A DNA stretch of 64,000 nucleotides from Chiloscyllium plagiosum. Taxonomy: Eukaryota. Numbering within the stretch: the first letter of the stretch is position 1; each line of letters opens with the position of its first letter. The stretch is taken from assembly GCF_004010195.1 (NCBI RefSeq), contig NC_057749.1, positions 12,302,833 through 12,366,832 on the forward strand, read 5' to 3'. The notes beneath the pieces were generated by a model. That model searched no databases. It was not told the DNA's origin and was given only the letters and a program-made list of their open reading frames with translations. Shown in pieces: positions 1 to 62,000 of this stretch. Position numbers and translations under genes: made by a program.

Positions 1-312
1 CCTCCTCTCATTTATCTCTCCACCCTGCAGGCTCTCTGCCTCTATTCCTAAAGAAGGGCTTTTGCCCGAAACGTCTATTTTCCTGCTCCTCGGATGCTGC
101 CTGAACTGCTTTTCCAGCACCACTCTAATCTAGAATCTGGTTTCCACCTCCTCTCATTTATCTCTCCACCCTGCAGGCTCTCTGCCTCTATTCCTAAAGA
201 AGGGCTTTTGCCCGAAACGTCTATTTTCCTGCTCCTCGGATGCTGCCTGAACTGCTTTTCCAGCACCACTCTAATCTAGAATCTGGTTTCCAGCATCTGC
301 AGCCCTTGTTTT
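1..312 (+). mobile_element. Penelope-type terminal repeat fragment with an exact 146-bp tandem duplication
   Basis: 1-146 is identical to 147-292. Each copy carries CTAAAGA-AGGGCTTTTGCCC-GAAACGTC (hammerhead-like, core CTGA>CTAA), homologous to the element ends at 12497 and 61034. Confidence 0.7.
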
Positions 313-5559: not shown

Positions 5560-5760
5560 AGTCGAAAGTGTGGTGCTGGAAAAGCACAGCAGGTCAGACA
5601 GCATCTAAGGAGCAGGAGAATCGATGATTTGGGCATAAGCCCTTCATCAGGAATCATGAAGTCTATTCTCCTGCTCCTTGGATGCTGCCAGACGTGCAGT
5701 GCTTTTCCAGCACCACACTTTCGACTCTGATCTCTAGCAGCTGAAGTCCTCACTTTCTCC
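5560..5760. mobile_element. Palindromic Penelope-terminus derivative (degenerate hammerhead)
   Basis: GTCGAAAGTGTGGTGCTGGAAAAGCAC...GTGCTTTTCCAGCACCACACTTTCGAC fold-back; minus strand CTGATGAAGGGCTTATGCCCAAA. Confidence 0.75.
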
Positions 5761-6906
5761 TTCTTTCTTTAGGAAAGAGATTTTCAGCTTTAAGTTTTTT
5801 AAGGTCTACCTTTCTTCTACGGATGCACCCAGGTTTCCTGGGAATAAACAGGAAAAATGCCCTAGAGCTATGCTTCTAGACATCTTCATTTTATGGGGTT
5901 CAACTCTCCTAAACTAAGTTTGTCAAAAAATTAAAGCCATAAACTTCATATCTTACCTCTTTTTAAAGCTTTGTATGTCTCCTTTGGTCCTTCAATAAAA
6001 ATATTTATCCTAATTGTAGGACTGTGCTTCATGGAGAAGTTCATGCAGAAAACACCTTTGACCACAAGTAAAGCCCTGCAGAAAAATGGAATAGTGAATC
6101 CTGTTGAATGGCTTCATGAACTGACAGTCATTTGGTAGAATGCTTCATCAGCAAAACTTACAAACAAGCACTGAGATGTAGGTTGGTGGTGAAAAAGGCC
6201 CTTCCCAAGAGATCCTCAAGCACTCTCAGAGTGTCAGTGCTATTGCCCTCATGAAGACTGCAAAAGACCAATGCCTATCTCCTCTGGTATATGCCATTGC
6301 AAAGGAAGTCTGGAGAGAGATGAAGTGTTATTTTGGTTGACACATGTTCCAATCAGCTCCATAATGGAAAGCTGTCTGGGTTCTTCCCAAGGGACACACC
6401 AAGACAAGTCAAAAGGGCAGTCAGCCAATCATGTTTGTTCCAGCTCTCCACATGAACATTCTGTCATTCTCCTGCCTTTTCCCTGTAATTCTGCACATTC
6501 TTCCTTTTGCAAATGATGGTCTAATCCCCTTTTCAATGCTTCAATTGAACCTGCCTCCACCACTCTCTTTCACAGCAGAAATCCACAGACCTTAACCACT
6601 TGCTGTGTGAAAAAGCTTTGTATCTTCCCATTTTGGCTGCTTTTGCTAAAGGAAATATAATCTACTGCTGGAGAACAAACAACTTGATGAAAGACAGTCG
6701 TTCATCTGTCCAAAACTAGCCTGTGCAGAGAACTCCCACAACTGTATGTTGCAGACTGGCACATTCCCAGGTCTGCCTACTGAGGGATATACATAAACCT
6801 GGGTTAGGTGCTGCAAAGGTGCAAAGAGAATAGGCCACTGTCAAAGGCCCTTCTGTCATCTTACGTTAAGGAGTTAGAATTTGTGTACAAATTCGCAAAA
6901 TTGTAA

Positions 6907-8930: not shown

Positions 8931-10294
8931 TGTAATTTCTTACAAATCAGACAGAGGTCTCTACAAACAACATCTCAAATTTATTTACAAGTAACTTTAA
9001 AAAATATTGTTCATTGCCACACATATCAAAGGAGGTTTCATTTATCATCATAATGGTGTGATACACCTTAAACGAAGCCATTTNNNNNNNNNNNNNNNNN
9101 NNNNNNNNNNNNNNNNNNNNNNNNNNNNNNNNNNNNNNNNNNNNNNNNNNNNNNNNNNNNNNNNNNNNNNNNNNNNNNNNNNNNNNNNNNNNNNNNNNNN
9201 NNNNNNNNNNNNNNNNNNNNNNNNNNNNNNNNNNNNNNNNNNNNNNNNNNNNNNNNNNNNNNNNNNNNNNNNNNNNNNNNNNNNNNNNNNNNNNNNNNNN
9301 NNNNNNNNNNNNNNNNNNNNNNNNNNNNNNNNNNNNNNNNNNNNNNNNNNNNNNNNNNNNNNNNNNNNNNNNNNNNNNNNNNNNNNNNNNNNNNNNNNNN
9401 NNNNNNNNNNNNNNNNNNNNNNNNNNNNNNNNNNNNNNNNNNNNNNNNNNNNNNNNNNNNNNNNNNNNNNNNNNNNNNNNNNNNNNNNNNNNNNNNNNNN
9501 NNNNNNNNNNNNNNNNNNNNNNNNNNNNNNNNNNNNNNNNNNNNNNNNNNNNNNNNNNNNNNNNNNNNNNNNNNNNNNNNNNNAGCCTTTTATAAATCAA
9601 ACTTTCATCCCTACAACATCTTGGCAACTTTCTTCTGAACGCTCTCCAGAGTTTTAACAGGCGACCAGGAACGGACACGATATTCCAGAAGAGACCTCAT
9701 CAATGTCCTGTGCAACCTCGACATGACTTCACGACACTTATATTGAAAGACAGAGACAAAGGTTAGCGTGCCAAATGCTTTATTAACCATCTTGTCTTTA
9801 TCTGATGCAAATTTCGAAGAGTTTTATATCTAAACCCCAAGGTCCCTCTGTTCATAACACGACTCAAGATCACGCCATTTTTGCAGTATGGTATATAGAG
9901 GATTGTAGCCTTATGTCTGAATTTAAAATACAACGAGTTAAGGAAATTGGCACAGAACTTGGAAAAGTAAATTGATGGTCGGGAGGAGAGAATTACTTCC
10001 ATATACAATCGAAAGCATTGAGACGAGGAGGTGAATGATTAAGTGCTTAAATAATGAATATAAAACACGATAAGATGTTCATTTATAGGCTGAATTACCA
10101 GGCAATGTGATGAGATGGAAGATTTGGGGGATCTTTGGGAGAGTTAATCGATCAACAAACTGTTTCCTGCATATAGAAGACCCACTGAGCAGAGGTAAAC
10201 TCAAAGAATGAGTCACATGCCAGTGAGCAGTGGGTATTGTCTGCAGCTGTCTCCAAAAGCAGTGCAAATGACGCTGTCCTGTGCTGATACAATA

Positions 10295-11879: not shown

Positions 11880-13760
11880 TGAATCATAGAACTTTGAATA
11901 TGGAACATAGAACATTGATCATAGAACATGGAAAATAAAACATTAAACAGTACACCAACGCTCACGTCCTTTGACCCTCAATGTTGTGCTGACCTTCTAT
12001 CCTCATCCAAGATCAGACTAACCTGCATAGTCTTTATTGTATTATTTTCCATGCGGCTATCCAATAATTGATTAAATATGACTAATGCACCTGACTCTAT
12101 TACAACTGCTGGCAGTGCATTCCATACACCCACAACGCTTTGTGTAAAGAACCTATCTCTGACATCTCCCGTAAACCTTCCTCCAAATACCTTAAAATTA
12201 TGCCTCCAAGTGATAGACATTTCTGCCCGTGTGCAAGTCTCGACCTATCCATTATTTCTATGCCTCTCAAAATCTTGTACACCTCCATTAAGCCACCTCT
12301 CATGCTTCCTCGTTCCAATGAGAAAAGCCCTAACTCCCCCAACCTTTCTTCAAAAGACATGCTCTCCAGTCGAGGGAGCACCTTGGTAAATCTCCTCTGT
12401 ACCCTCTCTAAAACATCCACATCTTTCATACAACAGGGCAACTAGAACTGCACCCAATACTCCAAGTGTGTTCTAACCATGGTTACATAGAGCTGTCGAG
12501 CTGAAAATGTGTTGCTGGAAAGGCGCAGCAGGTCAGGCAGCATCCAGGGACAGGAGAATCGACGTTTCGGGCATAAGCCCTTCTTCAGGACGTCTTCAGG
12601 AATGGGCATAATCCCATTCCTGAAGAAGGGCTTATGCCTGAAACGTCGATTCTCCTGTTCCCTGGATGCTGCCTGACCTGCTGCGCTTTTCCAGCACACA
12701 GTTTCAGCTCTGATCTCCAGCATCTGCAGACCTCACTTTCTCCTCCTACATAGAGCTGTAGCATGCCCTCGCAGCTCTTAAACGCATTCCCCTGTTAATT
12801 AATGGCAACACACCATATGCCTTCTTAAGAATTCTGTCAACTTGGTGGCAACTTTGTGGAATGTATGGACATGGACACCAAGATTCCCCTAGTTCTCTAT
12901 ACTGCCAAGAATCATGCATTTAACTCTGAATTCTGCCTTCAAGTTCGACTATCCAAAGTGAATCACTCCACATTTTTCCAGGTTGAACTCTATCTGCCAC
13001 TTTTAAGACCAATTCTGCATCTTGTACAACCTTCGTCTCGATTCACCGCTCCACCATCCTGCGTGTGATCAGCAAACTTAATAATCCATCCTGTGACTTC
13101 CTCATCCAAGTCATTTACAAAAATCACAAATAGCAGAGGTACTAGAACCGATCCCTGGAGAACACCACTGGTCACTGAAGTCCAGGCTGCATACTTTCTA
13201 CCTACCACCACCCTCTGGATTCTATGGACATTCAATTCTGCATCCAGATAGCCAGAATTCCCTAAATCGCATACCTCCTTACCTTCTGAACGAGCCTATC
13301 GTGAAGAACCTTACCAAATGATTAAATCCATGTACACCAAGTCCCGTGTTCTACCTTCATCAACGTGTTTTGTCACATCATCAAAAAATTCACTAAGGTT
13401 TGTGAGGCATGACCTCCCTCTAGCAAGGCCATGCTGACTACCTCTAATCAAACTACGAGTTTTCAAGTAATTTTATAAACTGTCTCATGGAATCCTCTCC
13501 AATAATTTGCTCAATGCTGATATCTGACTGAATGGCCTGTAATTCCCAGGATTGTTTCCATTCCCCTTCTTGAACAAGAGAAAAGTATTTGCCACCCTCC
13601 AGTGGGCAGTGAGGACACAAATATCATCTCCAAAAGTGCAACCTTGCCTCCTGTTGAAACCTCGAATATGTCCCATCTGACCCAGGTGATTTATCCATCC
13701 TTACGTTTATCCACATTTTCAGACATCCTACTTCCTCACATTAACTTGTTCTAGCATATC
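11880..13760 (-). mobile_element. Decayed CR1 RT region and 3' tail
   Basis: 'SGVLQGSVLVPLLFVIFVNDLD...KFADHT' and 'LERVQRRFTKVLP'; (CATAGAA)n tail. Confidence 0.88.
12497..12746. mobile_element. Short palindromic Penelope-derived insertion with two hammerhead motifs
   Basis: 13-bp TSD TACATAGAGCTGT at 12484-12496 and 12747-12759; motifs at 12561-12588 (-) and 12620-12647 (+). Confidence 0.85.
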
Positions 13761-19111: not shown

Positions 19112-19458
19112 ATTACCCGAGAGGTTGAGAGTAGTGAAGTCAGAACAAATATTTCAAGATAGCAAGAAGGCACCGGCAAACAACAAATTTGTTTTGAAGT
19201 ATGTCTACTTTAATGACAAGAGCATCTGGAATAAAGTGGGTGAACTTACAGCATCAGTTGGCACCTGGGATTTCGATGTGGCCATTACCCGAGAGGTTGA
19301 GAGTAGTGAAGTCAGAACAAATATTTCAAGATAGCAAGAAGGCACCGGCAAACAACAAATTTGTTTTGAAGTATGTCTACTTTAATGACAAGAGCATCTG
19401 GAATAAAGTGGGTGAACTTACAGCATCAGTTGGCACCTGGGATTTCGATGTGGCCATT
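19112..19458 (+). repeat. Exact 172-bp tandem duplication inside CR1
   Basis: The unit starting ATTACCCGAGAGG occurs at 19112 and 19284; ATT microhomology at the junction. Confidence 0.92.
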
Positions 19459-23490: not shown

Positions 23491-25850
23491 CGAGTCGAGA
23501 GTGTGGTGCTGGAAAAGCACAGCAGGTCAAGCAGCATCCGAGGAGGAAGGGAACTGACGTTTTGTGCATAAGCCCTTCATCAGGAATGAGGCTTGTGGGC
23601 CACGAGGCTGCGAAATAAGTGGGGTTGGCTGGAAAATAGCTGAGAAAGCAATAGGTAAATGAAGGTGATGGAGAATGTGATCGATCGGGGTGGGGGGGTG
23701 GGTTGGAGCAGATGGATGGGAAAGGTAATGGACATTTCAGGAGGGCGGTGCTGAATTGGAAGTTTGGGACTGGGATAATGTGCGAGTAGGGGAAATGAGG
23801 AAACTGTTGAAATCCACGTTTATCCCGTGTGGTTGCAGGGTCCCAAGTTGGAAGATGAGGCGTTCTTCCTCCAGGTGTTGGGTGGTAATGGTTTGGCGAT
23901 AGAGGAAGGCCAGGACTTGCATGCACTTTACGCAGTGAAAAGGGGAGTTGAAGTTTTCAGCCACGGGGTGTTGTGGCTGGTGGTGTTGGTGGGTGCAGTT
24001 GTCCCAGAGATGTTCTCTGAAATGATTGGCAAGAAGGCATCCTGTTTCCCCGATGTAAAGGAGACCACATTTTGTGGAATGAATGCTGTGGAAGACTTTA
24101 GTAGAGTAACAGGTAAATTTATGACGGATGTGGAAGAATCATTTTGGGCCTTGAACAAAGGTGAGGGGAGTGGTTTGGGTGCAGGGTTTGCACTTCCTGC
24201 AGTAGCAAGGAAAGTTGCCTGTAATGAGGTGTGGGCTGGTGGGTTTGGACCTGATGAGGGAGTTGCGGAGAGAATGATTTCTCTGGAATAGTCTTAGAGA
24301 TGGGAAGGGGAATATACCTCTTGTGGTAGGAACTATTTGGAAGTGGTGGAAGTGTCAGAGGATAATGCGATGCATGCGGAATTTGTTGGGGTGGAAGGGA
24401 AGGATTGGGGGGGTTCTGTCCTTGTTGTGTTGGGAGGGGTGGCGTTCAAGAGCGGTGATGTGGGAAGTGGAGAAGATGCACTGGAGGGCATTGTCAACCA
24501 TTTGTAAAGGGAATTTGCGATCTTGGAAGAAACAGGCCATGTGGGATATTCTAAGGTGGAATTAGTCATCCTGGTAACACATGCGGTGCAGGCAGAGGAA
24601 ATGGGAACAAGGGGTGCCCTTTTTACAGGAGGTGGGGTGGGAGGAGGTGAAGTCTAGGTATCTATGGGAGTTGGAGAGCTTGTAGTAGATATCTGTAGTT
24701 AGTCAGTCACCAGAGACGGAGATGGAGAGGTCCAGGTAGGGGAAGGAAGTGTACAGGTGAATTTGATGACGGGATGGAAAGTGATGTGAAAGTTGATTAA
24801 CTGTTCAACTGCCTCGTGGAAACACAATGTATCACTGATATAATCATCGAAATAGAAGAGGAAGAGGTAAAGCACGGTGCCAGTGTAAATGTGAAAGATG
24901 GACTGTTCCAAGTACCCGAAAAAGAGGTAGGCATAGCTGGTTCCCATTTGTTCCCCTTTGGTTTGGAGGAAGTGGGAGGATTGGAAGGAGAATTTGTTGA
25001 GGCTGAGGGCCAGTTCAGCAGGTGGGTGAGGGCGTTGGTGGAAAGGAACTAGATGAGATGGAATGACAGGAAGAAATGGAGGTCTCGGAGACCTTCATTG
25101 TGGCAGATTGATGTGCACTTGGACTGTCTCTATGGTGAAGTTGAGCGGTTGAGAAGCAGGGAAATAAAAATTTTGGAGGAAGTGAAGAGCGTGGGTGGTT
25201 TCCCAAATTCTAGATGGGTTCGTGAACTAAGGGGGACTGGATGGTGTCAAGGTAGGCAGAGATGAGTTCAGTGGGACAGGCGCAATCTGAGGCAGTGGGT
25301 CGACCTGGGAAGTCAGGTTTGCAAAGTTCTTGTAGGAGACTGAATCAGGCGGTGCACGTTCATGGACAATGACGTTGGAGGCTCCGGATGCAAGGGCCCC
25401 AGAGCTAATGCGGTTTTGGATGGTTGGGAGATAATAATTTGGTGATGGGAAGGGAGGTCGTGGTCGAGGAGGCAGTAGGAAGATGTGTCTGTGAGTTGGC
25501 ACCTGGGCTTCAGCAGTGCACCAAACGACTACTGCGCCTCCATTGTCTGTGGGTTTGATACTGTGGTTGGGGTTGGAATGGGGGGAGTGGAGGGCTGTGC
25601 ATTGTGAGGTGGGAGGTTGGAGTGGGTTGGGGGGGGGATGGACAGGTTGACGTGGTCGATGACATGGAGGCAGTTTGAAATGAAGAGGTCAAGGGCAGGT
25701 AAAGGCTCGCACGGGTTGTCCACGTGGATGGGGTGTGTTGGAGGCAGGAGAAAGTGTCCTTGGTGGGTGGGCGGGAGTCTTGATTTAACAAGTGAGCCCG
25801 GAGGCGGAGGTGATAGTAGAAAAATTCAAGGTCACGGCGAGTATCAAACT
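23491..25850 (-). mobile_element. Decayed Penelope-like element (RT + GIY-YIG)
   Basis: RT 'MGTSYAYLFFGYLEQSIF...YFDDYI'; 'DRTPPILPFHP'; 'LLYIGET' GIY-YIG region near 24050; 'EEERLIFQLGTLQPHGINVDF'; terminal repeat at 23491-23590. Confidence 0.85.
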
Positions 25851-27004
25851 CATTAATCTGGGAGCTGAGACCTTTGCTGATGACTAAATGTTCATTCTCA
25901 GTGAAGGGGAATGTCGCCTGCAGTGCCAGTTGTGGCGTTATCTGGAAACTTACTAACCATTCCTCCTACATTCAAATCCAAATCCTTTATATAAATGATT
26001 TTTTAAAAAAGTTAAACCAGTACCAAACCATGTGACACACATCAGGTCACAGGCTTCCAGTTTAAAAAATATTGTTCCACCACTACTGTCAGTTTGGAGG
26101 AAGTGGGAGGATTGGAAGGAGAATTTGTTGAGGCTGGAAATGCACAAAAACGTTTCACAAATATCCAGTTCGTTTCCTGGGAAACAGTTTGTCTCATCAT
26201 TTACATTGAACTTTCGTTCATTGAATTCACTAGTTCATAAATGTCAAGATTCTGCAGATTCTAATCAAGCTCAGCTTACCTTCATGCAGTCATTTATTGT
26301 TCACTGATAACTAAACTCAAAGCAGCCATGTGTGTAACGGTTTTTATTTAAACTAAATTTGAGGTCAGAACTTAATGTGGTTAAATTCAAATATTCAGTA
26401 TAGGAATGGATTTAATACATCGGCACCAGTCTGCTCTAATGATTATGAACGAATGGAAAGTCAAGGGAGAAATTTGTCTTTCTTCAACTGTAGCTTTCAT
26501 AATGATTGGTAATGAATACAAAATGAGGCGAGGTAAATTACTGACAGATATTGCACATACAAGAATCACTAGATTTAGATTTAGGTTTAGATTAGATTCC
26601 AGTGTGGAAACAGGCCCTTCGGCCCAACAAGTCCACACCGACTTTAATTGTATTTTGTGGCATACAATTCTTATCATTCAGACAAAATCAGCGATTAGTG
26701 ATTGGTCTTAATTTGCATCATGTTGTAAAATGAACATATTTAACTTTACATGAATCTGCCCAATTATATGTTACATGAACTTTGGGAAACTCTCAAATAT
26801 ATTCTAATAACAAGGATTCATTTAAGAAATATTAATCATGATAATTACTTTGGAGATAATTCGTATTTGTTTCCATTAACACAGAGATGCCTGCATAATC
26901 TGACATGATAAACATATAACCTTAAATTTATCAAGCACATATTAAGCTCAACACAATTTCTATACCTGAACTATTCATAATGTGTGAGCAGAGCCTATTT
27001 TTTC

Positions 27005-30540: not shown

Positions 30541-31339
30541 NNNNNNNNNNNNNNNNNNNNNNNNNNNNNNNNNNNNNNNNNNNNNNNNNNNNNNNNNNNN
30601 NNNNNNNNNNNNNNNNNNNNNNNNNNNNNNNNNNNNNNNNNNNNNNNNNNNNNNNNNNNNNNNNNNNNNNNNNNNNNNNNNNNNNNNNNNNNNNNNNNNN
30701 NNNNNNNNNNNNNNNNNNNNNNNNNNNNNNNNNNNNNNNNNNNNNNNNNNNNNNNNNNNNNNNNNNNNNNNNNNNNNNNNNNNNNNNNNNNNNNNNNNNN
30801 NNNNNNNNNNNNNNNNNNNNNNNNNNNNNNNNNNNNNNNNNNNNNNNNNNNNNNNNNNNNNNNNNNNNNNNNNNNNNNNNNNNNNNNNNNNNNNNNNNNN
30901 NNNNNNNNNNNNNNNNNNNNNNNNNNNNNNNNNNNNNNNNNNNNNNNNNNNNNNNNNNNNNNNNNNNNNNNNNNNNNNNNNNNNNNNNNNNNNNNNNNNN
31001 NNNNNNNNNNNNNNNNNNNNNNNNNNNNNNNNNNNNNNNNGTAGTCCAGGTATTTCCTTGCTCAATAAACACATGCTACTTCCAGATAATGTTTCCACTG
31101 TTGTTCTTAATTTTGTAGTGGTCCTATTTGATGCATTCCACCCACAAAAACCATGCTTCCTTTTTGAAGCTGGTAAAATCTTATCCATTCCACGCCCTCT
31201 GATGCAACCAATTTTCATTCGATTATTCCTCAAGTCGCAACCACTCATCACCTGGTATATGTGGATCCTTTTCAATCAGAAATACCAATTATCAACTAGA
31301 TTCTGCATAATTACATGCCACGACAATCCAATGACATAG

Positions 31340-49463: not shown

Positions 49464-50270
49464 GGCTGCATGGTGGCTCAGTAGCTGGCACGGCTGCCTC
49501 AAAGCGACAGGGTACTGGGTTCGATTCCAGCCTCAGGTGACTTTCAGTGTCGAGGTTCCACATTCTCCCCGTGTCTGCCTGTGTTTCCTCCAGTTGCTGT
49601 GGTTTCCTCACACAATCCAGAGGTGAGGTGAATTGGTAATGTGAAATTACTAGAGGGAGGAAGAGAGCTTCTTCAAGGAAGGCATCCTTGTAAGGGAGAT
49701 ATGGCTGTGGTAGCGAGTCTGGGAGATATGGCTGTGGTAGCGAGTCTGGGAGATATGGCTGTGGTAGCGAGTCTGGGAGATATGGCTGTGGTAGCGAGTC
49801 TGGGAGATATGGCTGTGGTAGCGAGTCTGGGAGATATGGCTGTGGTAGCGAGTCTGGGAGATATGGCTGTGGTAGCGAGTCTGGGAGATATGGCTGTGGT
49901 AGCGAGTCTGGGAGATATGGCTGTGGTAGCGAGTCTGGGAGATATGGCTGTGGTAGCGAGTCTGGGAGATATGGCTGTGGTAGCGAGTCTGGGAGATATG
50001 GCTGTGGTAGCGAGTCTGGGAGATATGGCTGTGGTAGCGAGTCTGGGAGATATGGCTGTGGTAGCGAGTCTGGGAGATATGGCTGTGGTAGCGAGTCTGG
50101 GAGATATGGCTGTGGTAGCAATGTGAAATTACCCCTAGTGTTCAGGGATGTGTCGGTGACGGATAAATGTGGATCATTAGCGTAGGGTGTGAGTCGGATA
50201 CCCTTCAGAATGTCACTGTGGATGTGCTGGGTTGAAGGCCTGTGTCAACATTGTAGTGGTTAGACAATTC
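49464..50270 (+). mobile_element. V-SINE interrupted by a minisatellite-bearing insertion
   Basis: SINE head and core at 49464-49650; the SINE resumes at 50120 after a duplicated AATGTGAAATTAC. Confidence 0.8.
49694..50119 (+). repeat. Perfect 27-bp minisatellite, about 15.8 copies
   Basis: (GGGAGATATGGCTGTGGTAGCGAGTCT)n. Confidence 0.97.
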
Positions 50271-52886
50271 AGCTGTGACTTACTGAAATGTCTGCACAGC
50301 TTCCACAAAACCTTGCACTGGAATTAACTTTGAAAATGACATTGAAATCATACAGAGAAAACTAAATGTTAGTTATTTGAAATAAATGTAACGGAGAGCT
50401 CTGTGGCATGCAAAAATCGAGCATTAACTTCCTTAGACTTACTTGCTATCAAAACGTTGTCCTGCCTATTCTGCTAAAAGTATTTGAAGCCATGCATATA
50501 TGGCTTCTATATTACTGCATCACATCCTCTATGCCCATAAATTCCTAATCCTTATAACCTAACCAGCATATGTGGGCATTTTGTATAACTGTCCTTAAGT
50601 GTCCATTATCATGTTCACCAAACTACTGCGAATACAATTTACAGGACCTGCAACTTCGATCAATTGACATATCAAGTCAGGGATAACAAAATGTCTGCTT
50701 TCTAAAAGAATTACCATCGTTGGTCACATCTTTCCAGTAAAATCACACACCCTTGCCATAGCAATTATAATGTCGGTGGGTTGTACAACTCCAGCTCATC
50801 TTGCAGTCACACTCCACCATTAATAAGTATGTCTTGAAAAATATGTAGAATGATTGCTTTTGTTTAGTCTCCTCCTGCTTGTGAATGTAATTATCATTGA
50901 CCACACAGGGATCTTCCATGCAAACTACGCTCTCCATTTCTCCAAAATGTCAATGAAAGGAGAATCTTTCTGTATAAGTGTAACAATAATATATCAAATG
51001 TTCTCACTTGTCTACTGATTTCTTGATCCGAAGTGAAAACTTTCTGATACTTAAAAATTACTGGAGTCGCAGCGCTGCTCAGCATATTCAAACTGCCCGA
51101 CAATGTCGCGGCTTTGGTTTTTGCTAGTAGAACACATTTGTGGCGGATTCACTCACTTCCGAAGGTCTCTTCAGTCAAATATTGCATTTTCCTTTGGAGC
51201 AAGGCCGCCAGCGAAATCTGGGATTAGTAAATTCTTCAAATGCAGAGTTCTTCGAATCAACTTGTGTGGAAATGTCACGTCTGGAGCAAATGGGACGCAA
51301 ATCCCGGCATTTTTGCTTGGAAGTATAACGTTTGCTGGTTTTATCAGAAGGCATTGGAATCTCCAACTGCTCCAGACATTCCACAAGGACTCACGGGCAT
51401 TCCACGACTTCAGTATGACGTCAATAATACGTCTTGATGAAGTCATATTTTAAAACCAGTTCCCCCATTTGATATGCACTTTTTCGAGACCTAATTTCAA
51501 TGTCTAATTTTCACAGAGTGGACCCACTCGATCTCCTTGTTTGATCAACGTGAATACTTCAGACTCTTCAAAACAGATAAGGAATCCATGATGCTGTTCG
51601 GATCGAAAAGTTTACAAACTATTTGCAGAAGGCAGCAATTCTGTAGGTAATTTGGTCAGATTGAGTTGAAACCGAGTGGTTTTTATTAAGAAGTCACGTG
51701 AATGTATCCGATCTCTATTTCTGCTTAGTGTGCTTGGCCCACTCCAGCCTCCACATCCTTCACTATGTATTGCAAACCTCCAAACCTGACACAAACTTGG
51801 TGTAGTGTCTGAGAGTTTGCCATAAGACGAGGCATACCTGAAACAACTGAAGAAAGGAATAATCTAACCCAGGGAGGGAGATGTGGATTGTATTGACCAG
51901 TGCTGTGTTGGGTGCCTCAGCAGGGGAATGCACGATTAGGAAATACAGCGTACAAACGTAGAGGTTATTTTCTCTGCCATTCTGCACAGCAATCCTCGAA
52001 AGCTAAGCAATTTTCTCCTCGGGAGTTGAATGATGAGAATAGCCAAAACCCAAGCAGAATCGGTTATTGTCCTTCAGTAAACAAGTCTCACAGTAACGCT
52101 TCAAATCGGCGACCTTGTACCTTGTGCATAAAGCATGGACAACTCTCTGAAACGTCCCGGTTTTCACTTGTTTCAGCAGAACGTATAACATGGCTCAGTG
52201 AGGTGTGGACACTCTCTGAAGTTTGTCACTTGCGCACTTGGTAGACTGGGAAGTTTCAGTTTTTGAGGAAACTATAAAAAAAGCACTCAAAAGGCGCGTT
52301 GCTTTGAGCCTGGAAAGAGACTAAATTACTTGGATTTTGCGAGTGATAAGCCATTGACTTCAGATCCTGTGTTGGGAATCTCAGTTNNNNNNNNNNNNNN
52401 NNNNNNNNNNNNNNNNNNNNNNNNNNNNNNNNNNNNNNNNNNNNNNNNNNNNNNNNNNNNNNNNNNNNNNNNNNNNNNNNNNNNNNNNNNNNNNNNNNNN
52501 NNNNNNNNNNNNNNNNNNNNNNNNNNNNNNNNNNNNNNNNNNNNNNNNNNNNNNNNNNNNNNNNNNNNNNNNNNNNNNNNNNNNNNNNNNNNNNNNNNNN
52601 NNNNNNNNNNNNNNNNNNNNNNNNNNNNNNNNNNNNNNNNNNNNNNNNNNNNNNNNNNNNNNNNNNNNNNNNNNNNNNNNNNNNNNNNNNNNNNNNNNNN
52701 NNNNNNNNNNNNNNNNNNNNNNNNNNNNNNNNNNNNNNNNNNNNNNNNNNNNNNNNNNNNNNNNNNNNNNNNNNNNNNNNNNNNNNNNNNNNNNNNNNNN
52801 NNNNNNNNNNNNNNNNNNNNNNNNNNNNNNNNNNNNNNNNNNNNNNNNNNNNNNNNNNNNNNNNNNNNNNNNNNNNNNNNNNNNNN

Positions 52887-55800
52887 ATGAATCCCTGCGT
52901 ATAATAAAGTGAACTGCTGTCCCTGTGTATAATAAAGAGAACACCAGTGCCTGTGTATAATATAGAAAACAGCAGCCCCCATGCACAATATAGAGAGCAT
53001 GAGTCACTGTGTACAATATAGAGAACAGGTATCCCTGTGTTTAATTAAGAGAGCAGCAATCCCTGTGTTTAATATATATAACAGCAGTCCCTGTGTACAA
53101 TCTGGAGAACAGCTATCCCTCAATATAATATAGAGAACATGAGTCAGTGTGTATAATATAGAGAACAGCAGTCCCTCTGTATAGAGAACAGCAGTTCCTG
53201 TGTCTATTATGCAGAACAACATTCCCTATGTATAAAATAGAGAACAGCAGTGCCTATGTACATTGTAGGGGACATCTGTCCCTGTGTATAATATAGAGAT
53301 CAGCTGTCCCTGAGTATGATATAGAGAACAGCAGTCTCTGAGTATAATATAGAGAACAGCAGTCTCTGTGGATAATATCGAGAACAGCAGTTGCTGTGCA
53401 TAATAAAGAGAACAGCAGGGTATATGAATAGGAAGGGGTTGGAGGGATATGGGCCAGGTGCTGGCAGGTGGGACTAGATTGGTTTGGGATATCTGGTCGG
53501 CATGGACGGGTTGGACCGAAGTGTCTGGTTCCGTGCTGTACATCTCTATGACTCTATAACTGCTGTCCCTGTGCATCATCCAGAGAACACCAATGCTTGT
53601 CTCTCATATAGAAAACAGCAGTCCCTGTGCACAATATAGAGAACATGGGTCACTGTGTATAATATAGAGAACAGCTATCCCTGTGTACAATATAGAGACT
53701 GTGTGGAGTTTGCACATTCTCCCCATGTCTGCATGGTTTCTTCCGTGTGCTCTGGTTTCCTCCCACAGTCCAAAATTATGCAGGTTTGGTGAAGTAGCCA
53801 TGCTAAATTGCCCGTAGTGTTAGGGTCGTGGGTAAATGTGGGGGAATGGGTCTGGGTGGGTTGCGCTTTGGCGGGTCGGTGTGGACTTGTTGGGCCGAAG
53901 GGCCTGTTTCCACACTGTAAGTAGAACATAGAACATAGAAGAATACAGCGCAGTACAGGCCCTTTGGCCCTCGATGTTGCGCCGATGCAGCTTTTCTATA
54001 TCCTGCTGTAACCTGCCACATCCTTCCTCACTGTCAACAACTCCTCCGACTAATCTAATCTAATCTAAGTAATCTAATCTAATATAATCTAAACAGTATT
54101 CCCTGTGCCTATTTTAGAGAAGAGCAGTGTCTGTGTCTAATACAGAGAACAGCAGTCCCTGTGTGCAATATAAAGCAGTCCCTGAGCGTAATATAGAGAA
54201 CAGCACTCCCTGTTTTTAATAAAGAGAGCAGCAGATCCTGTGTATAATATAGAGAATAGCAGTCCTTGTGTCTCATACAGGGAACAGCAGTCCCTGTGTC
54301 TCACATAGAGAACAGAGGTCCCTGTGTAAAATGTAAAAAACTGTGGTCCTGCATACATTGTGGAGAACAGTAGTCCCTGTATTTACTGTGGAGAACAGCA
54401 GATCCTGTGTCTCATGTAGAGAACAGCAGTTCCAATGTATTACATAGAGAACAGCTGTCCCTGAGTGTTTGGTAGAGAACAGTAGTCCCTGTGTATCATG
54501 AAGAAAAATGCGTTCCTGCGTACATTGTAGTGAACAGCAGTCCCTACATACAATATAGAGAACAGCAGTTCCCGTGTTTAGTAAACAGCAGTTTAGAATT
54601 TAGAGACCAGCAGTCCTGCATACATTGTAGAGAACAGCAGTCTTTGTTTGTAATAAAGAGAACAGCAATCCCTGTGTTTCATAAAGAGATTAGCAGTCCC
54701 TGTGTATAACATAGAGAACAGCAGTCACTGTGTAAAGCATTGAGAACATGTGTCCCTGTGTATATGATAGAAAGCAGGAGTCCCTCTGTGTAATGTAGAG
54801 AACAGGCTTCCCTGTGTATAATATGGAGAACAGCAGTCCTTGTGTCTATGAAAGAGGACAACGGTGCCCATGTATAAGAGAGAATAGCAGTCACTGTGTA
54901 CAATATGGAGATCAAAGCTGAAACTTTATTGCTGGAACAGCACAGCAGGTCAGGCAGCATCTAGGGAACAGAAGATTCGACGTTTCGGGCACATGCCCTT
55001 CTTCAGGAATGAGCAGAGAGTGGAGATCAGCAGACTTTATGTATAATATAGAGAACAGTCCCTGTGTTTACTAACGGGAAAAGCAGTCGCTGTGTCTAAC
55101 ATAGAAAACAGCAGTCACTGCGCGTAATATATAGAATAGCAGTCCCTGTGTATCATACAGAGAACAGCAGTCCCTGTGCCTATTTTAGTGCGTAATATAA
55201 AGAACAGCAATCCCTGTGTACAATATAGAGAACAGCTGTCCCTGTGTTTAATAAAGAGAGCAGCAATCCCTGTGCTTAATATAGAGAACAGCAGTCGCTG
55301 TGTCTCACATAGGGAACAAGAGTCTCTGTGTCTAATGTAGAGAACTGCAGTCAGTATGCATAATATATAGAACAGCAGTCACTGTGTACAACATATAGAA
55401 CAGCAAACCCTGTGAATAATGTAGTAAACAGCAGTCCCTGTTTATAATATGGAGAACAATAGTCCCTGTGTATATTGTGGAGAAGAGCAGATCCTGTGTC
55501 TCATGTGGAGAACAGCAGTCGCTGCGTATAATGTAGAGAACAGCTGTCCCTGAGTGCATGGTAGAGAACAGTACTCCCTGTGTAAAAAGTAGAAAACAGT
55601 GGTTCTGCGAAAATTATAGAGAAAAGCAGTCCCTGTGTACAGTGTGGGGAAAAGCAGTCCTACATATTATATAAAGAACAGCAGTCCCTGTGTATGATAT
55701 AGAACAGCAGTCCCTATGTTTCATACAAAGAAAAGCAGTCGCTGTGTATAATATAGAGAACATGCGTCCCTGTATATATTGTGTAGAGAGGGAGTCCCTC

Positions 55801-57730: not shown

Positions 57731-59351
57731 TCAGCTTTTCCAGCATCACTCTGATCTAAACTCTGGTTTCCAGCATCTGCGGTCCTCACTTTTGCGGCCT
57801 GACCTGCTGTGCTTTTCCAGCACCACTCTGACAAATACAACATTACAGTGCTATACAAGCCGTCTATGGAACCGCTCGGCTAATAAAGGAAGTTAGACTC
57901 ATAGAACTAAGAACATTACAGCGTAATACATGCCCTATATGGAACCGCTTGGCTAATAACTAATGTTTGACATATACAACAGAGAACATTACAGCGTTGT
58001 ACAGGCCGTCTATGGAACCGCACGCGTAATAAATGAAGTTAGACTAATACAACAAAGGACATCAGAACACAGTATAGGCCCTTTATGGAACAGCTTGCTT
58101 CATAATGGAAGTTAGACTCATAAGAACATGGAGGATTACAGCGCAGTACAGGCCCTTTATGCAACTGCTTGGCTAATACCGGACGTTCAATTAATACAAC
58201 ATAGTACAGCACAGTACAGCACCTTGATGGAAATCCTTGGCTAATAAAGGAAGTAAGGATCACAGAACTTAAAACATTACAGCGCAATACAGACCATTTA
58301 TGCAACCACTCGGCTAATACAGGAAGTGAGACTCATAGAACATGGAGCATTACAGCGCAATGCAGGCCCTATATGGAACCGCTTGCTTGTTAACGGAAGT
58401 TAGACTCATAGAACATGTGCCTTTACAGCACAGTACAGGCACTTTATGGAACCGCTCGGCTGATGATGGACACTAGACGAATACAACATAGAACATTACA
58501 GTGCAGTGCAGGACCTTTATGGAAATGTTTGGCTAATAAAGGAAGTAAGACTCATAGAACATTATAGCGCAGTACAGGTCCTTTATGGAACCGCTCGGCT
58601 AATACTGGAAGTTTGACAAATACAACATAGAAGTAGTACAGGCCCTTTACGCAACCGCTTGTCTAATACTGGACGTTAGACAAATACAACATAAAACATT
58701 ACAGCGCAGTACAGGCCGTATATGGAACCGTTTGCTTGATAATGGAAGTTAGACTCATATAACATGGGGCATTACATCGCAGTACAGGCACTGTATGGAA
58801 CCACTCAGCTAATAATGGACACTAGACTAATATAACAAAGAACATTACAGTGCAGTACAGAACCTTTATGGAAATGCTTGGCTAATAAAGGAAGTAAGAC
58901 TCACAGAACATAGAACATTACAGTGCAATACAGGCCCTTTATGGAAATGATTGGCAAATAAAGGAAGTTCGACTCATCGAACATGGGGCATTAAAGCGCA
59001 ATACAGGCCCTTTATGGAACCGTTCAGCTAATAAAATAAGTTTGACTAATAAACATGGAACATTACAGTGCAGTACAGGACCTTTATGCAACTGCTTGGC
59101 TAACACCAGACGTTAGACTAATACAACATGTAACATCACAACGTAGTACAAGCCCTTCATGCAACTTCTTGGCTAAAACCAGAAGTTTGACAAATACAAC
59201 ATAGAACATTACAGCCCTGTACAGGCCATTTATGGAACCGCTTGCCCAGTAAAGGAAGTTAGACTCATAGAACATGTGGCATTACAGCACAATACAGGCC
59301 CTTCATGGAACCACTCGGCTAACAATATAGGCTAGACTAATGCAACATAGA

Positions 59352-59570
59352 GGAGAAAGTGAGGACTGCCGATGCTGGAGATCAGAGCTTAAAAATATGT
59401 TGCTGAAAAAGCGCAGCAGGTCAGGCAGCATCAAAGGAACAGGAGAATCACCGTTTTGGGCATAAGCCCTTCTTCAGGAAACCTGAAGAAGGGCTTATGC
59501 CCGAAATGTCGATTCTCCTGTTCCTTTGATGCTGCCTGACCTGCTGCGCTTTCCAGCAACACATTTTTAA
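59352..59570. mobile_element. Palindromic Penelope-derived insertion
   Basis: 16-bp TSD ACTAATGCAACATAGA; fold-back with hammerhead motifs. Confidence 0.85.
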
Positions 59571-60309: not shown

Positions 60310-60513
60310 ATGGAAATGTGTTGCTGGAAAAGCGCAGCAGGTCAGGCAGCATCTAGGGAACAGGAGAATCGACGTTTCGGGCATTAGCCCTTCTTCAGGG
60401 CTAATGCCCGAAACGTCGATTCTCCTGTTCCCTAGATGCTGCCTGACCTGCTGCGCTTTTCCAGCAACACATTTCCATCTCTGATCTCCAGCATCTGCAG
60501 ACCTCACTTTCTC
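60310..60513. mobile_element. Palindromic Penelope-derived insertion
   Basis: 15-bp TSD CTCATAGAACATGGG; intact hammerhead core at 60371-60398 (-). Confidence 0.85.
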
Positions 60514-60674
60514 CTCATAGAACATGGGGCATTACATTGCAGTACAGCACTGTATGGAACCACTCAGCTAATAATGGACACTAGACTAATACAACAAAGA
60601 ACATTATATCGCAGTACAGAACTTTTATGGAAATGCTTGGCTAATAAAGGAAGTAAGACTCATAGAACATAGAA

Positions 60675-60900
60675 GTTTGCATGTTCTCCCCCTGTCTGCG
60701 TGTGTTTCCTCCGGGTGCTCCGGTTTCCTCCCACAGTCCAAAGATGTGCAGGTCAGGTGAATTGGCCATGGTAAATTGCCCGTAGTGTTAGGTAAGGGGT
60801 AAATGTAGGGGTATGGGTGGGTTGCGCTTCGGCGGGTCGGTGTGGGCTTGTTGGGCCGAAGGGCCTGTTTCTACACTGTAATGTAATGTAATCTAATCTA
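60675..60900 (+). mobile_element. 5'-truncated V-SINE in the satellite
   Basis: V core, TAATC tail, ATAGAA on both sides. Confidence 0.85.
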
Positions 60901-61033: not shown

Positions 61034-62000
61034 GAAAAATGTGGTGCTACAAAAACACAGCAGGCCAGGCAGCATCCGAGGAGCAGGAGAACCGACGTTT
61101 CGGGCATAAGCCCTTCTTCAGGAATGAGGCTGGTGTGCCAAGCAGGCTGAGATAAAGCGGAGGGGGGAGGGAATTTGGAGGAGGGCTGCTGGGAATACGA
61201 TAGGTGGAAGGAGGTGAGGGTGAGGGTGAGGGTAATGGACCGGAGAGGGGGTGGGGACAGAGAGGTCGGGAAGAAGATTGCAGGTCAAGAGGGCGGTGCT
61301 GAATCTGAGGGTTGTGACTGAGATAAAGTGGGGGGAGGGGAAATGAGGAAGCTGGAGAAATCTACATTCATCCCGTGTGTGCGGGTGTCATAGAGATGTT
61401 CTCTGAAATGATCTGCAAGTTGGTATTCTGTCGCCCCGATGTAGAGGAGACCACATCGGACGCAATGGATACAGTAAATGATGTGTGTGGAGGTGCAGGT
61501 GAATTTGCGACTGATATGGAAGGATCCATTGGGGCTTGGAGGGAAGTGAGGGGGGGAGGTGTGGGCGCATGTTTTGTACTTCTTGCGGTTGCAGGGGAAG
61601 GTGCCGGGAATGGATGTTGGATTGGTTGGGGGGTGTGGACCTGACGAGGGAGTCGCGGAGGGAGTGGTCTCTCCAGAACGCTGCTAGGGGTGGGGAGGGA
61701 AATATATCCCTGGTGGTGGGGTCTGTTTGGAGGTAGCGGAAATGACGGAGGATGATCCGATGTATGTGGAAGTTGGTGGGGTGGTAGGTGAGGACAAGTG
61801 GTGTTCTGTCCTGGTGGCGATTAGAGGGGCAGGGTTCAAGGGCGGAGGTGCGGGAAGTGGAGGAGATGCGGTGGAGAGCATCGTCGACCATGTCTGAGGG
61901 GAAATTGCGGTCTTCGAAGAAGGAGGCGATTTAGGTTGTTCGGTATTGGAATTGGTCCTCCTGGGAGCAGATGTGGCGGAGGCGAAGGAATTGGGAATAT
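61034..62000 (-). mobile_element. 5'-truncated Penelope-like element in the satellite
   Basis: 'DRTPLVLTYHP...IFPSPPLAAFWRDHSLRDSLVRS' and a GIY-YIG region; hammerhead at 61094-61121; GAAGTT on both flanks. Confidence 0.87.

What the first reader, a model, noticed from the sequence alone, without database searches (positions are those of the whole stretch)
12497..12746. Fold-back mini-elements carrying hammerhead ribozyme motifs on both strands
Seen: a 250-bp palindrome with a 13-bp TSD. Each arm reads CTGAAGA-A-GGGC(N4)GCC[C/T]-GAAA-CG-TC, so both strands present a hammerhead core. The same architecture recurs at 5560, 59352 (16-bp TSD) and 60310 (15-bp TSD), with a different fold-back centre each time. 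Known: Penelope-like elements carry minimal type I hammerheads in their terminal repeats, thought to cleave as dimers through a palindromic stem III. Inference: these are either repeated inverted, truncated PLE integrations or a non-coding, ribozyme-bearing mobile family. Any transcript would also form long dsRNA.
Basis: partly seen in the sequence, partly recalled or inferred. Interest (0 to 1): 0.72.

Follow-up and report, generated by a model that had tools for sequence, protein, structure and literature searches.

The report
Head-to-head Penelope retroelement tail copies
The 250-base palindrome is one insertion made of two short, inverted end-pieces of a Penelope-like jumping gene, each carrying that family's usual minimal hammerhead motif; this is a known way these elements insert, not a new kind of mobile element.

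Summary
Window 12497-12746 is a 250-nt fold-back flanked by a 13-nt duplication, and a 97%-identical empty site elsewhere in the genome carries that 13-mer once and no fold-back. Each arm is the last ~95-130 nt of a Penelope-like element (PLE). In the window, the same sequence follows decayed ORFs whose relatives combine reverse transcriptase with a GIY-YIG endonuclease. The hammerhead is the helix-III-less "min-HHR" already described for metazoan PLEs, and no Rfam model matches it.

Across 34 fold-backs (4 in the window, 30 elsewhere in the genome):
- All 34 pair one arm carrying the 35-nt PLE "tail" with one arm lacking it.
- Nearly all have flanking duplications.
- Inner ends cluster just 5' of CUGAAGA, not at the predicted ribozyme cut.
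- Centres fall into a few recurrent microhomology junction types at unrelated sites.

This matches the published PLE architecture: an inverted 5'-truncated copy with a tail at one end. It does not fit a self-propagating fold-back family. My preferred mechanism is reverse transcription primed from both cut target strands, one from each of the two internal start sites; that step is inferred. RNA reads show only passive co-transcription and no cleavage ends. Verdict: a new member of a known kind, of low interest.

The parts
12484..12496 (.). Left copy of the 13-nt target-site duplication TACATAGAGCTGT
   Evidence: exact direct repeat. The empty site L087 has it once.
12497..12590 (-). Tail-less inverted arm. 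It is a PLE 3'-end copy, reference positions 701-794 of the genomic copy L012 used as ruler, and it ends at the upstream of the two 3' termini.
12561..12588 (-). min-HHR motif on the minus strand (CTGAAGA A GGGC TTAT GCCC GAAA CG TC). The predicted cut follows the C at 12561.
   Evidence: Features compared with PMC4209133.
12591..12617 (.). Fold-back centre with filler and an extra 14-nt mini-palindrome (12593-12606 / 12613-12626), itself a short inverted piece of the element's 5' edge
   Evidence: (I4).
12615..12710 (+). Direct arm, body (reference 698-794)
12620..12647 (+). min-HHR motif on the plus strand (helix II 3' side reads GCCT, a CpG-decay change giving G10.1-U). The predicted cut is between 12647 and 12648.
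12711..12746 (+). 35-36-nt PLE 'tail' extension, present on this arm only
   Evidence: Tail defined in PMC8557442 and PMC11167929.
12747..12759 (.). Right copy of the target-site duplication
5564..5761 (.). Older fold-back of the same kind. The tail-less arm is on the minus strand; the tailed plus arm starts at reference 728, so it lacks the CUGANGA box.
59350..59567 (.). Fold-back with the tailed arm on the minus strand and the tail-less arm on the plus strand, flanked by a 16-nt duplication
60311..60516 (.). Fold-back with a tail-less minus arm and a tailed plus arm starting at reference ~710. The arms show 0 differences in 69 compared positions. Flanked by a 15-nt duplication.
61036..61930 (-). 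5'-truncated, decayed PLE copy: ORF remnants with the linker and GIY-YIG motif, then a 3' untranslated stretch, then min-HHR (61094-61121) and a tail-less end
23491..25965 (-). Second decayed PLE copy, of an older subfamily (CTGATGA core). Frameshifted ORF pieces include a YxDD-like stretch and a GIY-YIG-like stretch.
   Evidence: The Pfam scan of these pieces found nothing significant.
54906..55011 (-). Simple (not folded back) short copy with an intact min-HHR, inserted in a 28-nt satellite
1..292 (+). Head-to-tail tandem (146 nt x 2.0, 100% match) of an older subfamily of the same end-piece. The core reads CTAAAGA.

Best explanation
The fold-back is one insertion event of a canonical, endonuclease-bearing Penelope-like retroelement. 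It consists of two short copies of the element's terminal repeat region (pLTR, about 95 nt, carrying the family's minimal hammerhead motif) joined head to head and flanked by a 13-nt target duplication.

Shown:
- Single-event insertion, confirmed by an empty site.
- Identity of the arms with the 3' end of PLE copies.
- In every fold-back examined, one arm ends at the downstream 3' terminus (with the 35-nt tail) and the other at the upstream terminus (without it).
- Inner ends cluster at reference 698-702, just 5' of CUGAAGA.
- A small set of junction types recurs.

Inferred mechanism (about 50% for this version):
1. The element's endonuclease cuts both target strands 10-16 nt apart.
2. Each 3' end primes reverse transcription on PLE RNA, one from each of the two internal start sites.
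3. Both cDNAs run to a fixed RNA 5' end.
4. The two identical cDNA 3' ends then anneal through 2-3 nt of self-complementarity, or are joined bluntly, and are filled in.

The copies lack any coding capacity and the upstream sequence of longer copies, so they are dead on arrival. The hammerhead motifs on both strands are a by-product of the inversion. A read-through transcript holds one sense motif and its complement and folds into a long hairpin rather than a ribozyme.
For: Insertion:
- 13-nt TSD.
- Empty site L087, 97% identical, with the 13-mer once.
- Flanking repeats found by script for 32 of 34 fold-backs; by eye they are 10-16 nt.

PLE identity:
- The same end sequence follows ORF remnants at window 61285-61930(-) and 23737-25965(-).
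- The 180-aa ORF 61388-61930 gave 9 hits at E<=0.001, with 52-80% identity over 47-58% of the query.
- Four were scanned. P0003 has RVT_1 (E 9e-5, 22.7 bits, below the 29.6 cut-off) plus GIY-YIG (23.2 bits, cut-off 22.6). P0002 has both at weaker scores. P0001 has only a weak GIY-YIG match. P0004 has RVT_1 at 32.9 bits.

min-HHR features of PMC4209133, all present:
- CUGANGA and GAAA boxes.
- G10.1-C11.1.
- No helix III, with a palindromic ACGU in its place.
- Of 85 relaxed matches, 43 are identical. Variation sits at N7, loop 2 and CpG sites.

Architecture:
- 34 of 34 head-to-head pairs have exactly one tailed arm.
- Simple copies from queries blind to the tail are 10 tailed and 14 tail-less. 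Independent choice would therefore give about 49% mixed pairs. By my arithmetic that is about 1.5e-8 for the 25 fold-backs from tail-blind sources.
- 5' ends of 18 of 33 simple copies lie at reference 695-706.
- Contig and read loose ends pile up at reference 699-700 (table 7).

Junctions: there are 31 distinct centre strings among 34 fold-backs. Three types recur at unrelated sites...CAGG|(G)CTTATGCCC...CAGGAA|GGGCTTATG and ...CAGG(A/TT)TCCTGAAG.

Published match:
- Inverted pLTR, 31-nt tail on one of the inverted pLTRs, TSD, and palindromes at the inverted junction (PMC3846280).
- An inverted 5'-truncated copy and a tail at one end only (PMC8557442).
- A PLE protein that cleaves and extends both strands and starts reverse transcription at two internal sites separated by the tail (PMC11167929).
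Against: - No Rfam hammerhead model matches, either at gathering score over the whole window or at E<=10 over 12400-12850.
- Helix I is very weak in long copies: 2 bp, a U-U mismatch, then 1 bp, read by eye.
- Helix II shows no compensatory changes.
- RNA reads show no pile-up of ends at the predicted cut (table 6: none). This library is not suited to show one.
- Intact master elements could not be inspected, because upstream stretches of several long copies read N.
- The sample is 120 scored hits out of 911 + 657 + 1563 first-look candidates, best-scoring first, so it leans towards young copies like the query.
- The two-strand priming model does not by itself explain why the two start sites are always used once each.
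- Arms of one fold-back are not significantly more alike than arms of different fold-backs (764 of 5000 permutations reach the observed value). Whether one RNA or two served as template stays open.
- What fixes the 5' end at reference ~700 is unexplained.
Confidence: 0.85

Rival explanations
1. The insertions are PLE-derived, as above, but they form from a single priming event. One cDNA reaches the RNA 5' end and self-primes or switches template at the short palindrome to make the inverted arm. Endonuclease-mediated resolution then removes the tail from one end. This is the self-priming idea discussed for rotifer Penelope.
For: - Palindromic or microhomology junctions at the centre.
- The extra 14-nt snap-back piece in the window's own centre (I4).
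- Some fold-backs have arms with 0-1 differences in 69 positions and shared rare variants: window 60311, L077 and L066.
- The self-priming proposal, and the statement that the tail is needed for endonuclease recognition (PMC3846280; PMC11167929).
- It would explain the strict one-tail rule without needing coordination of two start sites.
Against: - The tail-less outer end coincides with the 3' terminus of simple tail-less copies (reference 790-796 in 30 of 34 fold-backs). This looks like a start site rather than a trimming product.
- In 14 of 14 fold-backs from the first two samples the arms differ at the same variant positions, 779 and 785. Sampling bias can explain part of this.
- In the window copy the arms differ at 7 of 69 positions, while the flank differs from its empty site by about 3%.
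- Overall, arms are no more alike than random pairs.
Confidence: 0.3
2. The fold-backs are a separate, self-propagating non-coding family (SINE- or MITE-like) that carries ribozymes and is copied as a whole hairpin unit.
For: - Short copies far outnumber long ones. Depth over the last ~130 nt is about 40x (X2) and about 8x (X19) that of the next bin upstream.
- The 5' end is sharply defined.
- Some centre strings are identical at 2-3 unrelated loci.
Against: - Centres vary: 31 distinct strings among 34 fold-backs, with arm inner ends from reference 627 to 750.
- The left outer end always falls at a reverse-transcription start-type terminus directly against the target duplication. It is not at a variable 5' truncation point, and no flank is shared.
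- The three 3'-end sequence variants occur in long copies, in simple short copies and in fold-back arms alike.
- The orientation of the tail relative to the junction asymmetry is not fixed.
- Duplications are 10-16 nt and variable, unlike DNA-transposon MITEs.
Confidence: 0.05
3. The palindrome arose from two separate insertions that landed head to head by chance, or from a later local rearrangement or assembly artefact.
For: The element is very abundant, so nested insertions do occur. L066 holds two fold-backs within 1.3 kb, and several loci hold extra fragments.
Against: - A single pair of target duplications brackets the whole 250 nt, and the empty site lacks both arms.
- The same architecture with flanking repeats is found in 32 of 34 cases.
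- Reads and contigs from other runs contain 'opposite strands' joints at the same place (table 5).
- A second contig (L002) carries the same filled site.
Confidence: 0.02

Closest known systems
Insertion units of canonical endonuclease-bearing Penelope-like elements: pLTR, adjacent inverted 5'-truncated copy, optional 30-40-nt tail (Arkhipova et al. 2013, PMC3846280; Craig et al. 2021, PMC8557442)
   Same: Head-to-head inverted terminal repeats, a tail on one of the two only, short variable target duplications, palindromic or microhomology junctions, heavy 5' truncation, partial tandems nearby, and a hammerhead motif in the repeat.
   Different: Here the unit has no internal part at all: it is two solo end-pieces of about 95 and 130 nt. 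Such mini-units and simple solo pieces seem to be the most numerous products. The inner ends cluster at one position. I have not seen the one-tail rule counted in the papers I read; here it holds in 34 of 34.
Minimal hammerhead ribozymes (min-HHR) of metazoan PLEs (Cervera and de la Pena 2014, PMC4209133)
   Same: CUGANGA and GAAA boxes, an unpaired base after A9, G10.1-C11.1, no helix III with palindromic 15.2-16.2 (ACGU), and location in the PLE terminal repeat. That paper also noted pairs of motifs 100-700 bp apart on opposite strands.
   Different: Helix I is shorter than the 4-5 bp reported for most families and resembles the 2 bp reported for D. virilis. Helix II is 4 bp, not 6-8. Activity is untested.
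Two internal reverse-transcription start sites and both-strand cleavage and extension by the Anolis PLE protein PAc (Frangieh et al. 2024, PMC11167929)
   Same: There are two 3' termini about 35 nt apart, and the sequence between them is the tail. An AC-rich stretch lies just before the upstream terminus. The hammerhead cut site does not define copy ends.
   Different: That work is in vitro, on a lizard element. Here there is only genomic footprint evidence. The strict pairing of one site with the other in fold-backs is not described in the text I read.
Non-LTR retrozymes of animals (PMC7229834, search listing only; Li et al. 2026 preprint 10.64898/2026.07.22.740005, abstract and passages)
   Same: Short non-coding hammerhead-bearing repeats related to PLE terminal repeats. 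The window's 146-nt x 2 tandem at 1-292 has that head-to-tail layout.
   Different: Retrozymes are head-to-tail tandems thought to give circular RNAs. The fold-backs are head-to-head and give one sense motif per transcript. The tandem at 1-292 has a changed core (CTAAAGA).
Twin-priming inversions of L1 elements (recalled, not looked up here)
   Same: Both target strands are used as primers, giving an inverted 5' part.
   Different: In twin priming the inverted and direct parts come from different, adjoining regions of one RNA. Here both arms cover the same region.

Membership tests
Canonical EN+ Penelope-like element (insertion product) | One ORF with reverse transcriptase followed by a C-terminal GIY-YIG endonuclease, upstream of the same terminal sequence | tested here: met
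   - Window ORF remnants at 61285-61930(-) and 23737-25965(-) directly precede the min-HHR end.
- Relatives found with the 180-aa piece carry RVT_1 and GIY-YIG in one protein: P0003 and P0002.
- The window pieces themselves are decayed: GIY-YIG reaches only E 0.16.
- Intact copies could not be read, because those stretches read N.
Canonical EN+ Penelope-like element (insertion product) | [quoted passage not shown] | tested here: met
   34 of 34 fold-backs have one tailed and one tail-less arm. The tail is 35 nt.
Canonical EN+ Penelope-like element (insertion product) | Inverted 5'-truncated copy adjoining head to head, with the whole unit flanked by a short target duplication | tested here: met
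   Empty site. A larger version (inverted 503-794 next to direct 335-829) is in L082.
Canonical EN+ Penelope-like element (insertion product) | Partial head-to-tail tandems forming pLTRs | tested here: inconclusive
   One 146-nt x 2 tandem of an older subfamily lies at window 1-292. No full pLTR-ORF-pLTR unit could be seen, because ORF regions read N.
min-HHR of metazoan PLEs | Conserved boxes CUGANGA and GAAA with cleavage triplet GUC | tested here: met
   (5 hits, 0.00 expected). (43 of 85 relaxed hits are identical).
min-HHR of metazoan PLEs | Unpaired nucleotide between A9 and 10.1, and a G10.1-C11.1 pair | tested here: met
   An A follows CTGAAGA and GGGC pairs with GCCC. The window's + arm has G-U after a C-to-T change.
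min-HHR of metazoan PLEs | No helix III; palindromic 15.2-16.2 allowing a dimeric helix III | tested here: met
   GAAA-CG-UC gives the palindrome ACGU with no loop. Dimer formation itself was not tested.
min-HHR of metazoan PLEs | Helix I of about 4-5 bp | tested here: inconclusive
   In long copies CAUUC lies upstream and GAUUC downstream. That gives C-G, U-A, a U-U mismatch and A-U, read by eye. This is weaker than most families and similar to the 2 bp reported for D. virilis.
min-HHR of metazoan PLEs | Self-cleavage after GUC | not testable with these tools
   No pile-up of read ends in the one RNA run that mapped. That library cannot settle the question.
Rfam hammerhead families (type I/II/III models) | Covariance-model match | tested here: not met
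   0 matches at gathering score in the whole window. None at E<=10 in 12400-12850, where the only hits were hairpin-type miRNA models plus two other weak non-hammerhead models.
Non-LTR retrozyme | Head-to-tail tandem of hammerhead-bearing units | tested here: not met
   The fold-backs are head to head. Only window 1-292 is head to tail, and its core is changed.
MITE / fold-back DNA transposon | Symmetric terminal inverted repeats, a duplication of fixed length, and a family-specific internal sequence | tested here: not met
   The arms are unequal by the 35-nt tail in 34 of 34. Duplications vary from 10 to 16 nt. The arms equal a retroelement 3' end.

The most novel reading that the evidence does not exclude
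The fold-backs may be genomic footprints of a coordinated, symmetric insertion reaction. A dimeric PLE particle would prime reverse transcription from both cut target strands and use each of the two internal start sites exactly once. The template would be a discrete ~100-130-nt RNA that begins at the 5' edge of the hammerhead motif. The hammerhead's palindromic ACGU could be what pairs two such RNAs in the particle. That would give the non-cleaving min-HHR a structural role in insertion. It would also explain why these mini-units, rather than full elements, are the main product.
Probability: 0.25. Interest if true: 0.5.

Novelty: new member of a known kind. Interest (0 to 1): 0.25.

Why it matters
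For annotation, these palindromes should be masked as Penelope-like end fragments. They should not be reported as new ribozyme genes, miRNA-like hairpins (which is how Rfam's weak hits read them) or a new transposon class.

For PLE biology, three findings give in-genome support for features so far shown in one in vitro system, namely two internal start sites and extension of both strands:
- The one-tail rule holds in 34 of 34 fold-backs.
- The inner end is fixed just upstream of the hammerhead core.
- The microhomology junction types are predictable.

They also show that the hammerhead cut site does not define the ends of copies. Because the hairpins are co-transcribed inside host RNAs on both strands, they are a plausible source of double-stranded RNA, but no small-RNA data were available to test that.

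Tried and rejected
- Rfam: no hammerhead hit at gathering score or at E<=10. The top hits were miRNA-precursor models, which match any long hairpin.
- Pfam on the window's own ORF pieces: only GIY-YIG at E 0.16.
- Fold of the 140-nt single unit: not more stable than shuffles, z -0.52.
- Looking for a full-length element. The 5' pLTR-like start at L085:3665 turned out to be a short copy inside another retroelement's ORF, and the rest reads N. Listing ORFs across it gave only X, so this was left.
- The stretch upstream of the window start reads N, so the extent of the 146-nt tandem is unknown.
- An apparent rule that the two arms of a fold-back always differ at reference 779/785 (14 of 14). I reject it as a rule. 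A search with the other variant showed that variant to be the commonest, and gave 15 fold-backs with both arms alike at those positions. The first pattern therefore came largely from ranking hits by likeness to the query.
- Same RNA or two RNAs as template: the permutation test has no power to decide (764 of 5000).
- Expression: the look-up of sequencing runs listed no RNA holder. One raw-read RNA run (X20) laid 0 reads, which is no test. The other (X19) laid 1753 reads, and 0.93 of what was laid runs on into unlike sequence.
- No small-RNA run was offered, so the dsRNA/small-RNA idea is untested.
- A splice-acceptor or hammerhead-cut origin of the 5' end at reference ~700 was considered and dropped. 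No AG precedes it, and the predicted cut is 30 nt downstream. Only 1-2 arms start at 728-731.
- The search of earlier findings returned nothing by place or by sequence.
Full report
**What is in the sequence**

Window 12497-12746 is a 250-nt fold-back. Its inverted arms lie at 12498-12590 and 12618-12710 and are 93-97% complementary in three blocks. An exact 13-nt direct repeat, TACATAGAGCTGT, flanks it at 12484-12496 and 12747-12759.

The motif CTGAAGA-N-GGGC-N3-6-GCCY-GAAACGTC occurs 5 times in the window, once on each strand of this fold-back. It occurred in none of 100 shuffles.

The fold-back is not symmetric. The right arm runs on for 35-36 nt (12711-12746) that the left arm lacks.

A self-comparison of the window finds the following related copies:
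- Fold-backs at 5564-5761, 59350-59567 and 60311-60516.
- Single copies at 23491, 54906 and 61036, all on the minus strand.
- Fragments at 57734-57826.
- A perfect 146-nt x 2 head-to-tail tandem at 1-292.

Not all have a hammerhead core on both strands. At 5564 and 60311 one arm begins downstream of or inside the CUGANGA box. At 5564 and 59350 the cores carry point changes.

**What the arms are**

Two single copies in the window are preceded by frameshifted ORF remnants. One reads ...FTCTSTHIIYCIHCVRCGLLYIG.T...HFREHL, which is a GIY-YIG-type stretch, after a Cys-rich linker. Pfam gives only E 0.16 on that decayed piece.

The neighbouring 180-aa ORF (61388-61930, minus strand) finds 9 proteins at E<=0.001. 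All are named as uncharacterised proteins of cartilaginous fishes, with 52-80% identity over 47-58% of the query. I scanned four of them:
- P0003 has RVT_1 (below its cut-off) followed by GIY-YIG above Pfam's cut-off (23.2 against 22.6 bits).
- P0002 has both at weaker scores.
- P0001 has only a weak GIY-YIG match.
- P0004 has RVT_1 at 32.9 bits.

Reverse transcriptase followed by a C-terminal GIY-YIG endonuclease defines canonical Penelope-like elements (PMC8557442 abstract and passages). The fold-back arms are therefore copies of the 3'-terminal repeat region of a PLE.

**The hammerhead**

No Rfam family matches. There were 0 hits at gathering score in the whole window. At E<=10 over 12400-12850 the only matches were miRNA-precursor hairpin models and two other weak models, none a hammerhead.

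This is expected for the minimal hammerhead of metazoan PLEs. Cervera and de la Pena (PMC4209133, main text read) had to define their own descriptor because the motif has no helix III. All the hallmarks they list are present:
- The CUGANGA and GAAA boxes.
- An unpaired base between A9 and 10.1.
- G10.1-C11.1.
- A palindromic 15.2-16.2 (here ACGU) that could build helix III only between two copies.

Helix I is very short in long copies: C-G, U-A, a U-U mismatch, A-U, read by eye.

Among 85 relaxed matches in the window and the fetched loci, 43 are identical. Variation sits at the free core position N7 (A or T), in loop 2 and at CpG sites. There are no compensatory stem changes. The pattern fits constraint at the level of master copies but is weak evidence.

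The same paper already reports pairs of min-HHRs 100-700 bp apart on opposite strands, and only low, dimer-dependent activity in vitro.

**Genome-wide sample**

The window lies in a 3.56-Gb assembly. I ran three searches of it with parts of the arm:
- Arm plus tail: 911 candidates.
- Middle part, blind to the tail: 657 candidates.
- The other arm's variant, also blind to the tail: 1563 candidates.

Each search scored the best 40 candidates, giving 80 loci. I dropped 17 as duplicates of the same places or of the window locus. One of them, L002, is a second contig with the same filled site.

As ruler I used one real long copy (L012, 829 nt) rather than a consensus. On it:
- CUGAAGA starts at 703.
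- The predicted cut follows 730.
- The upstream 3' terminus is about 794.
- The downstream terminus is 829.

**Results of the sample**

1. All 34 head-to-head pairs (30 in loci, 4 in the window) have exactly one arm ending at about 825-829 and one arm without the tail. Thirty of the tail-less arms end at 788-796 and four end elsewhere. Simple copies from the two tail-blind searches are 10 tailed and 14 tail-less. Independent choice would therefore give about 49% mixed pairs. For the 25 fold-backs from tail-blind sources that is about 1.5e-8 by my arithmetic.
2. Flanking direct repeats were found by script for 32 of 34 fold-backs (one mismatch allowed). By eye they are 10-16 nt.
3. The 5' ends of 18 of 33 simple copies lie at reference 695-706. 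In most fold-backs at least one arm reaches 698-703. Only 1-2 arms start at 728-731, where a ribozyme-cleaved RNA would begin.
4. Centres are 31 different strings among 34, but three junction types recur at unrelated sites...CAGG|(G)CTTATGCCC...CAGGAA|GGGCTTATG and ...CAGG(A/TT)TCCTGAAG. Each is what results if two identical cDNA 3' ends, both ending at about 700-702, pair through 2-3 nt (GAA with TTC, GG with CC of helix II) or are joined bluntly. The window's own centre adds a 14-nt snap-back piece.

**Empty site**

The left flank is itself a high-copy repeat with 3822 candidates. One 1.9-kb contig piece (L087) is 97% identical to the flank and carries TACATAGAGCTGT once with no fold-back. 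Two 83-84% paralogues are also empty.

The 250 nt therefore entered as one unit and created the duplication. I cannot tell whether L087 is the other allele or a recent duplicate.

The two arms of the window copy differ at 7 of 69 compared positions, more than the ~3% between filled and empty flanks. This hints that they were not identical at birth.

Over 29 fold-backs, partner arms are not significantly more alike than shuffled partners (764 of 5000 permutations). A few (window 60311, L077, L066) have near-identical arms sharing rare variants. Whether one RNA or two served as template stays open.

An apparent rule that arms always differ at positions 779/785 (14 of 14) came largely from ranking hits by likeness to the query.

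**Comparison with what is published**

- Arkhipova et al. [quoted passage not shown] They suggest self-priming.
- Craig et al. [quoted passage not shown]
- Frangieh et al. 2024 (PMC11167929, main text read) show several things in vitro. A lizard PLE protein cleaves and extends both target strands. Reverse transcription starts at two internal sites with the tail between them. The hammerhead needs protein to cut and is not needed for insertion. No RNA-seq reads end at the cut site.

The fold-backs fit all of this. Head-to-tail retrozymes (preprint 10.64898/2026.07.22.740005, abstract and passages; PMC7229834, listing only) have a different layout.

It is not independent evidence.

**Transcription**

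As RNA the fold-back forms a ~95-bp hairpin of -193 kcal/mol, z -21. The single unit is not unusually stable, z -0.52.

One raw-read poly(A) single-cell RNA run of the same species label laid 1753 reads on a long copy:
- The reads lie on both strands.
- They concentrate on the last ~130 nt, about 8x the next bin.
- 0.93 of what was laid runs on into unlike sequence.
- There are no pile-ups of starts or ends.

This is what passive co-transcription inside host RNAs looks like. It does not test ribozyme activity.

**Mechanism**

Shown:
- Single-event insertion.
- PLE origin of the arms.
- The two kinds of outer end.
- The fixed inner end.
- The recurrent junction types.

Inferred, at about even odds:
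1. Both cut target strands prime reverse transcription, one at each start site.
2. Both cDNAs run to an RNA 5' end at about 700.
3. The two ends anneal or are joined and are filled in.

The main rival, at about 30%, is single priming followed by self-priming and endonuclease resolution that removes one tail. Neither explains what sets the 5' end at 700. I could not inspect full-length elements because their coding stretches read N.

**Verdict**

The thing is a known PLE insertion architecture in a lineage where I found no specific description: the searches turned up only general surveys, seen as listings.

The counts for the one-tail rule, the fixed inner end and the junction types are small additions to PLE biology. 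Novelty: new member of a known kind. Interest is low.

Noticed in passing
window 1-292 (and L086, upstream of the window start): A perfect 146-nt x 2.0 head-to-tail tandem of an older subfamily of the same PLE end-piece. Its hammerhead core reads CTAAAGA. The first unit stops inside the tail and the second runs through it. The sequence upstream of the window reads N, so the array's length is unknown.
   Followed up: partly
L087 (a 1.9-kb contig) versus window 12300-12830 and L002: An empty site, 97% identical, exists alongside two filled copies of the same locus. This may be a presence/absence polymorphism of the fold-back, or a recent duplication that predates the insertion.
   Followed up: partly
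reference position ~698-702 of the element (window 12615-12620; many loci): Short copies and fold-back arms share a sharply defined 5' end 1-5 nt upstream of CUGAAGA. It is not at the predicted ribozyme cut, and no AG precedes it. An AT-rich TTTTATC lies about 30 nt upstream in long copies. The cause is unexplained; an RNA start site is one guess.
   Followed up: partly
element tail versus body (window 12663-12672 and 12719-12728): The tail's CAGCATCT is complementary to GGATGCTG in the body, and the predicted fold pairs them. The tail also resembles the stretch just before it (TCCAGCA...CAG appears twice). This may relate to the two start sites.
   Followed up: no
window 52892-57735 and 57835-64000: There are two long satellite-like arrays: a 28/56-nt unit, then a 73/146/219-nt unit. 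Several PLE pieces are inserted in them (54906, 57734, 59350, 60311, 61036-61930).
   Followed up: no
window 49694-50119 and 19112-19458: A perfect 27-nt tandem of 15.8 copies at 100% match, and a perfect 172-nt x 2 duplication.
   Followed up: no
window 12300-12496 and 12760-12950: The fold-back sits inside a copy of another high-copy repeat: 3822 first-look candidates at about 83-84% identity.
   Followed up: partly
window 9084-9583, 30541-31040, 52387-52886: Three runs of exactly 500 N. They are likely assembly gaps or withheld stretches.
   Followed up: no
L082:4767-7612: A larger version of the same architecture. An inverted tail-less copy (reference 503-794) faces a direct tailed copy (335-829) across a 1.9-kb stretch that reads N.
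   Followed up: no
L066:250-466 and 1466-1691: Two separate fold-backs lie within 1.3 kb. One shares the rare TTTCCAT variant in both arms with the window's 60311 fold-back.
   Followed up: no
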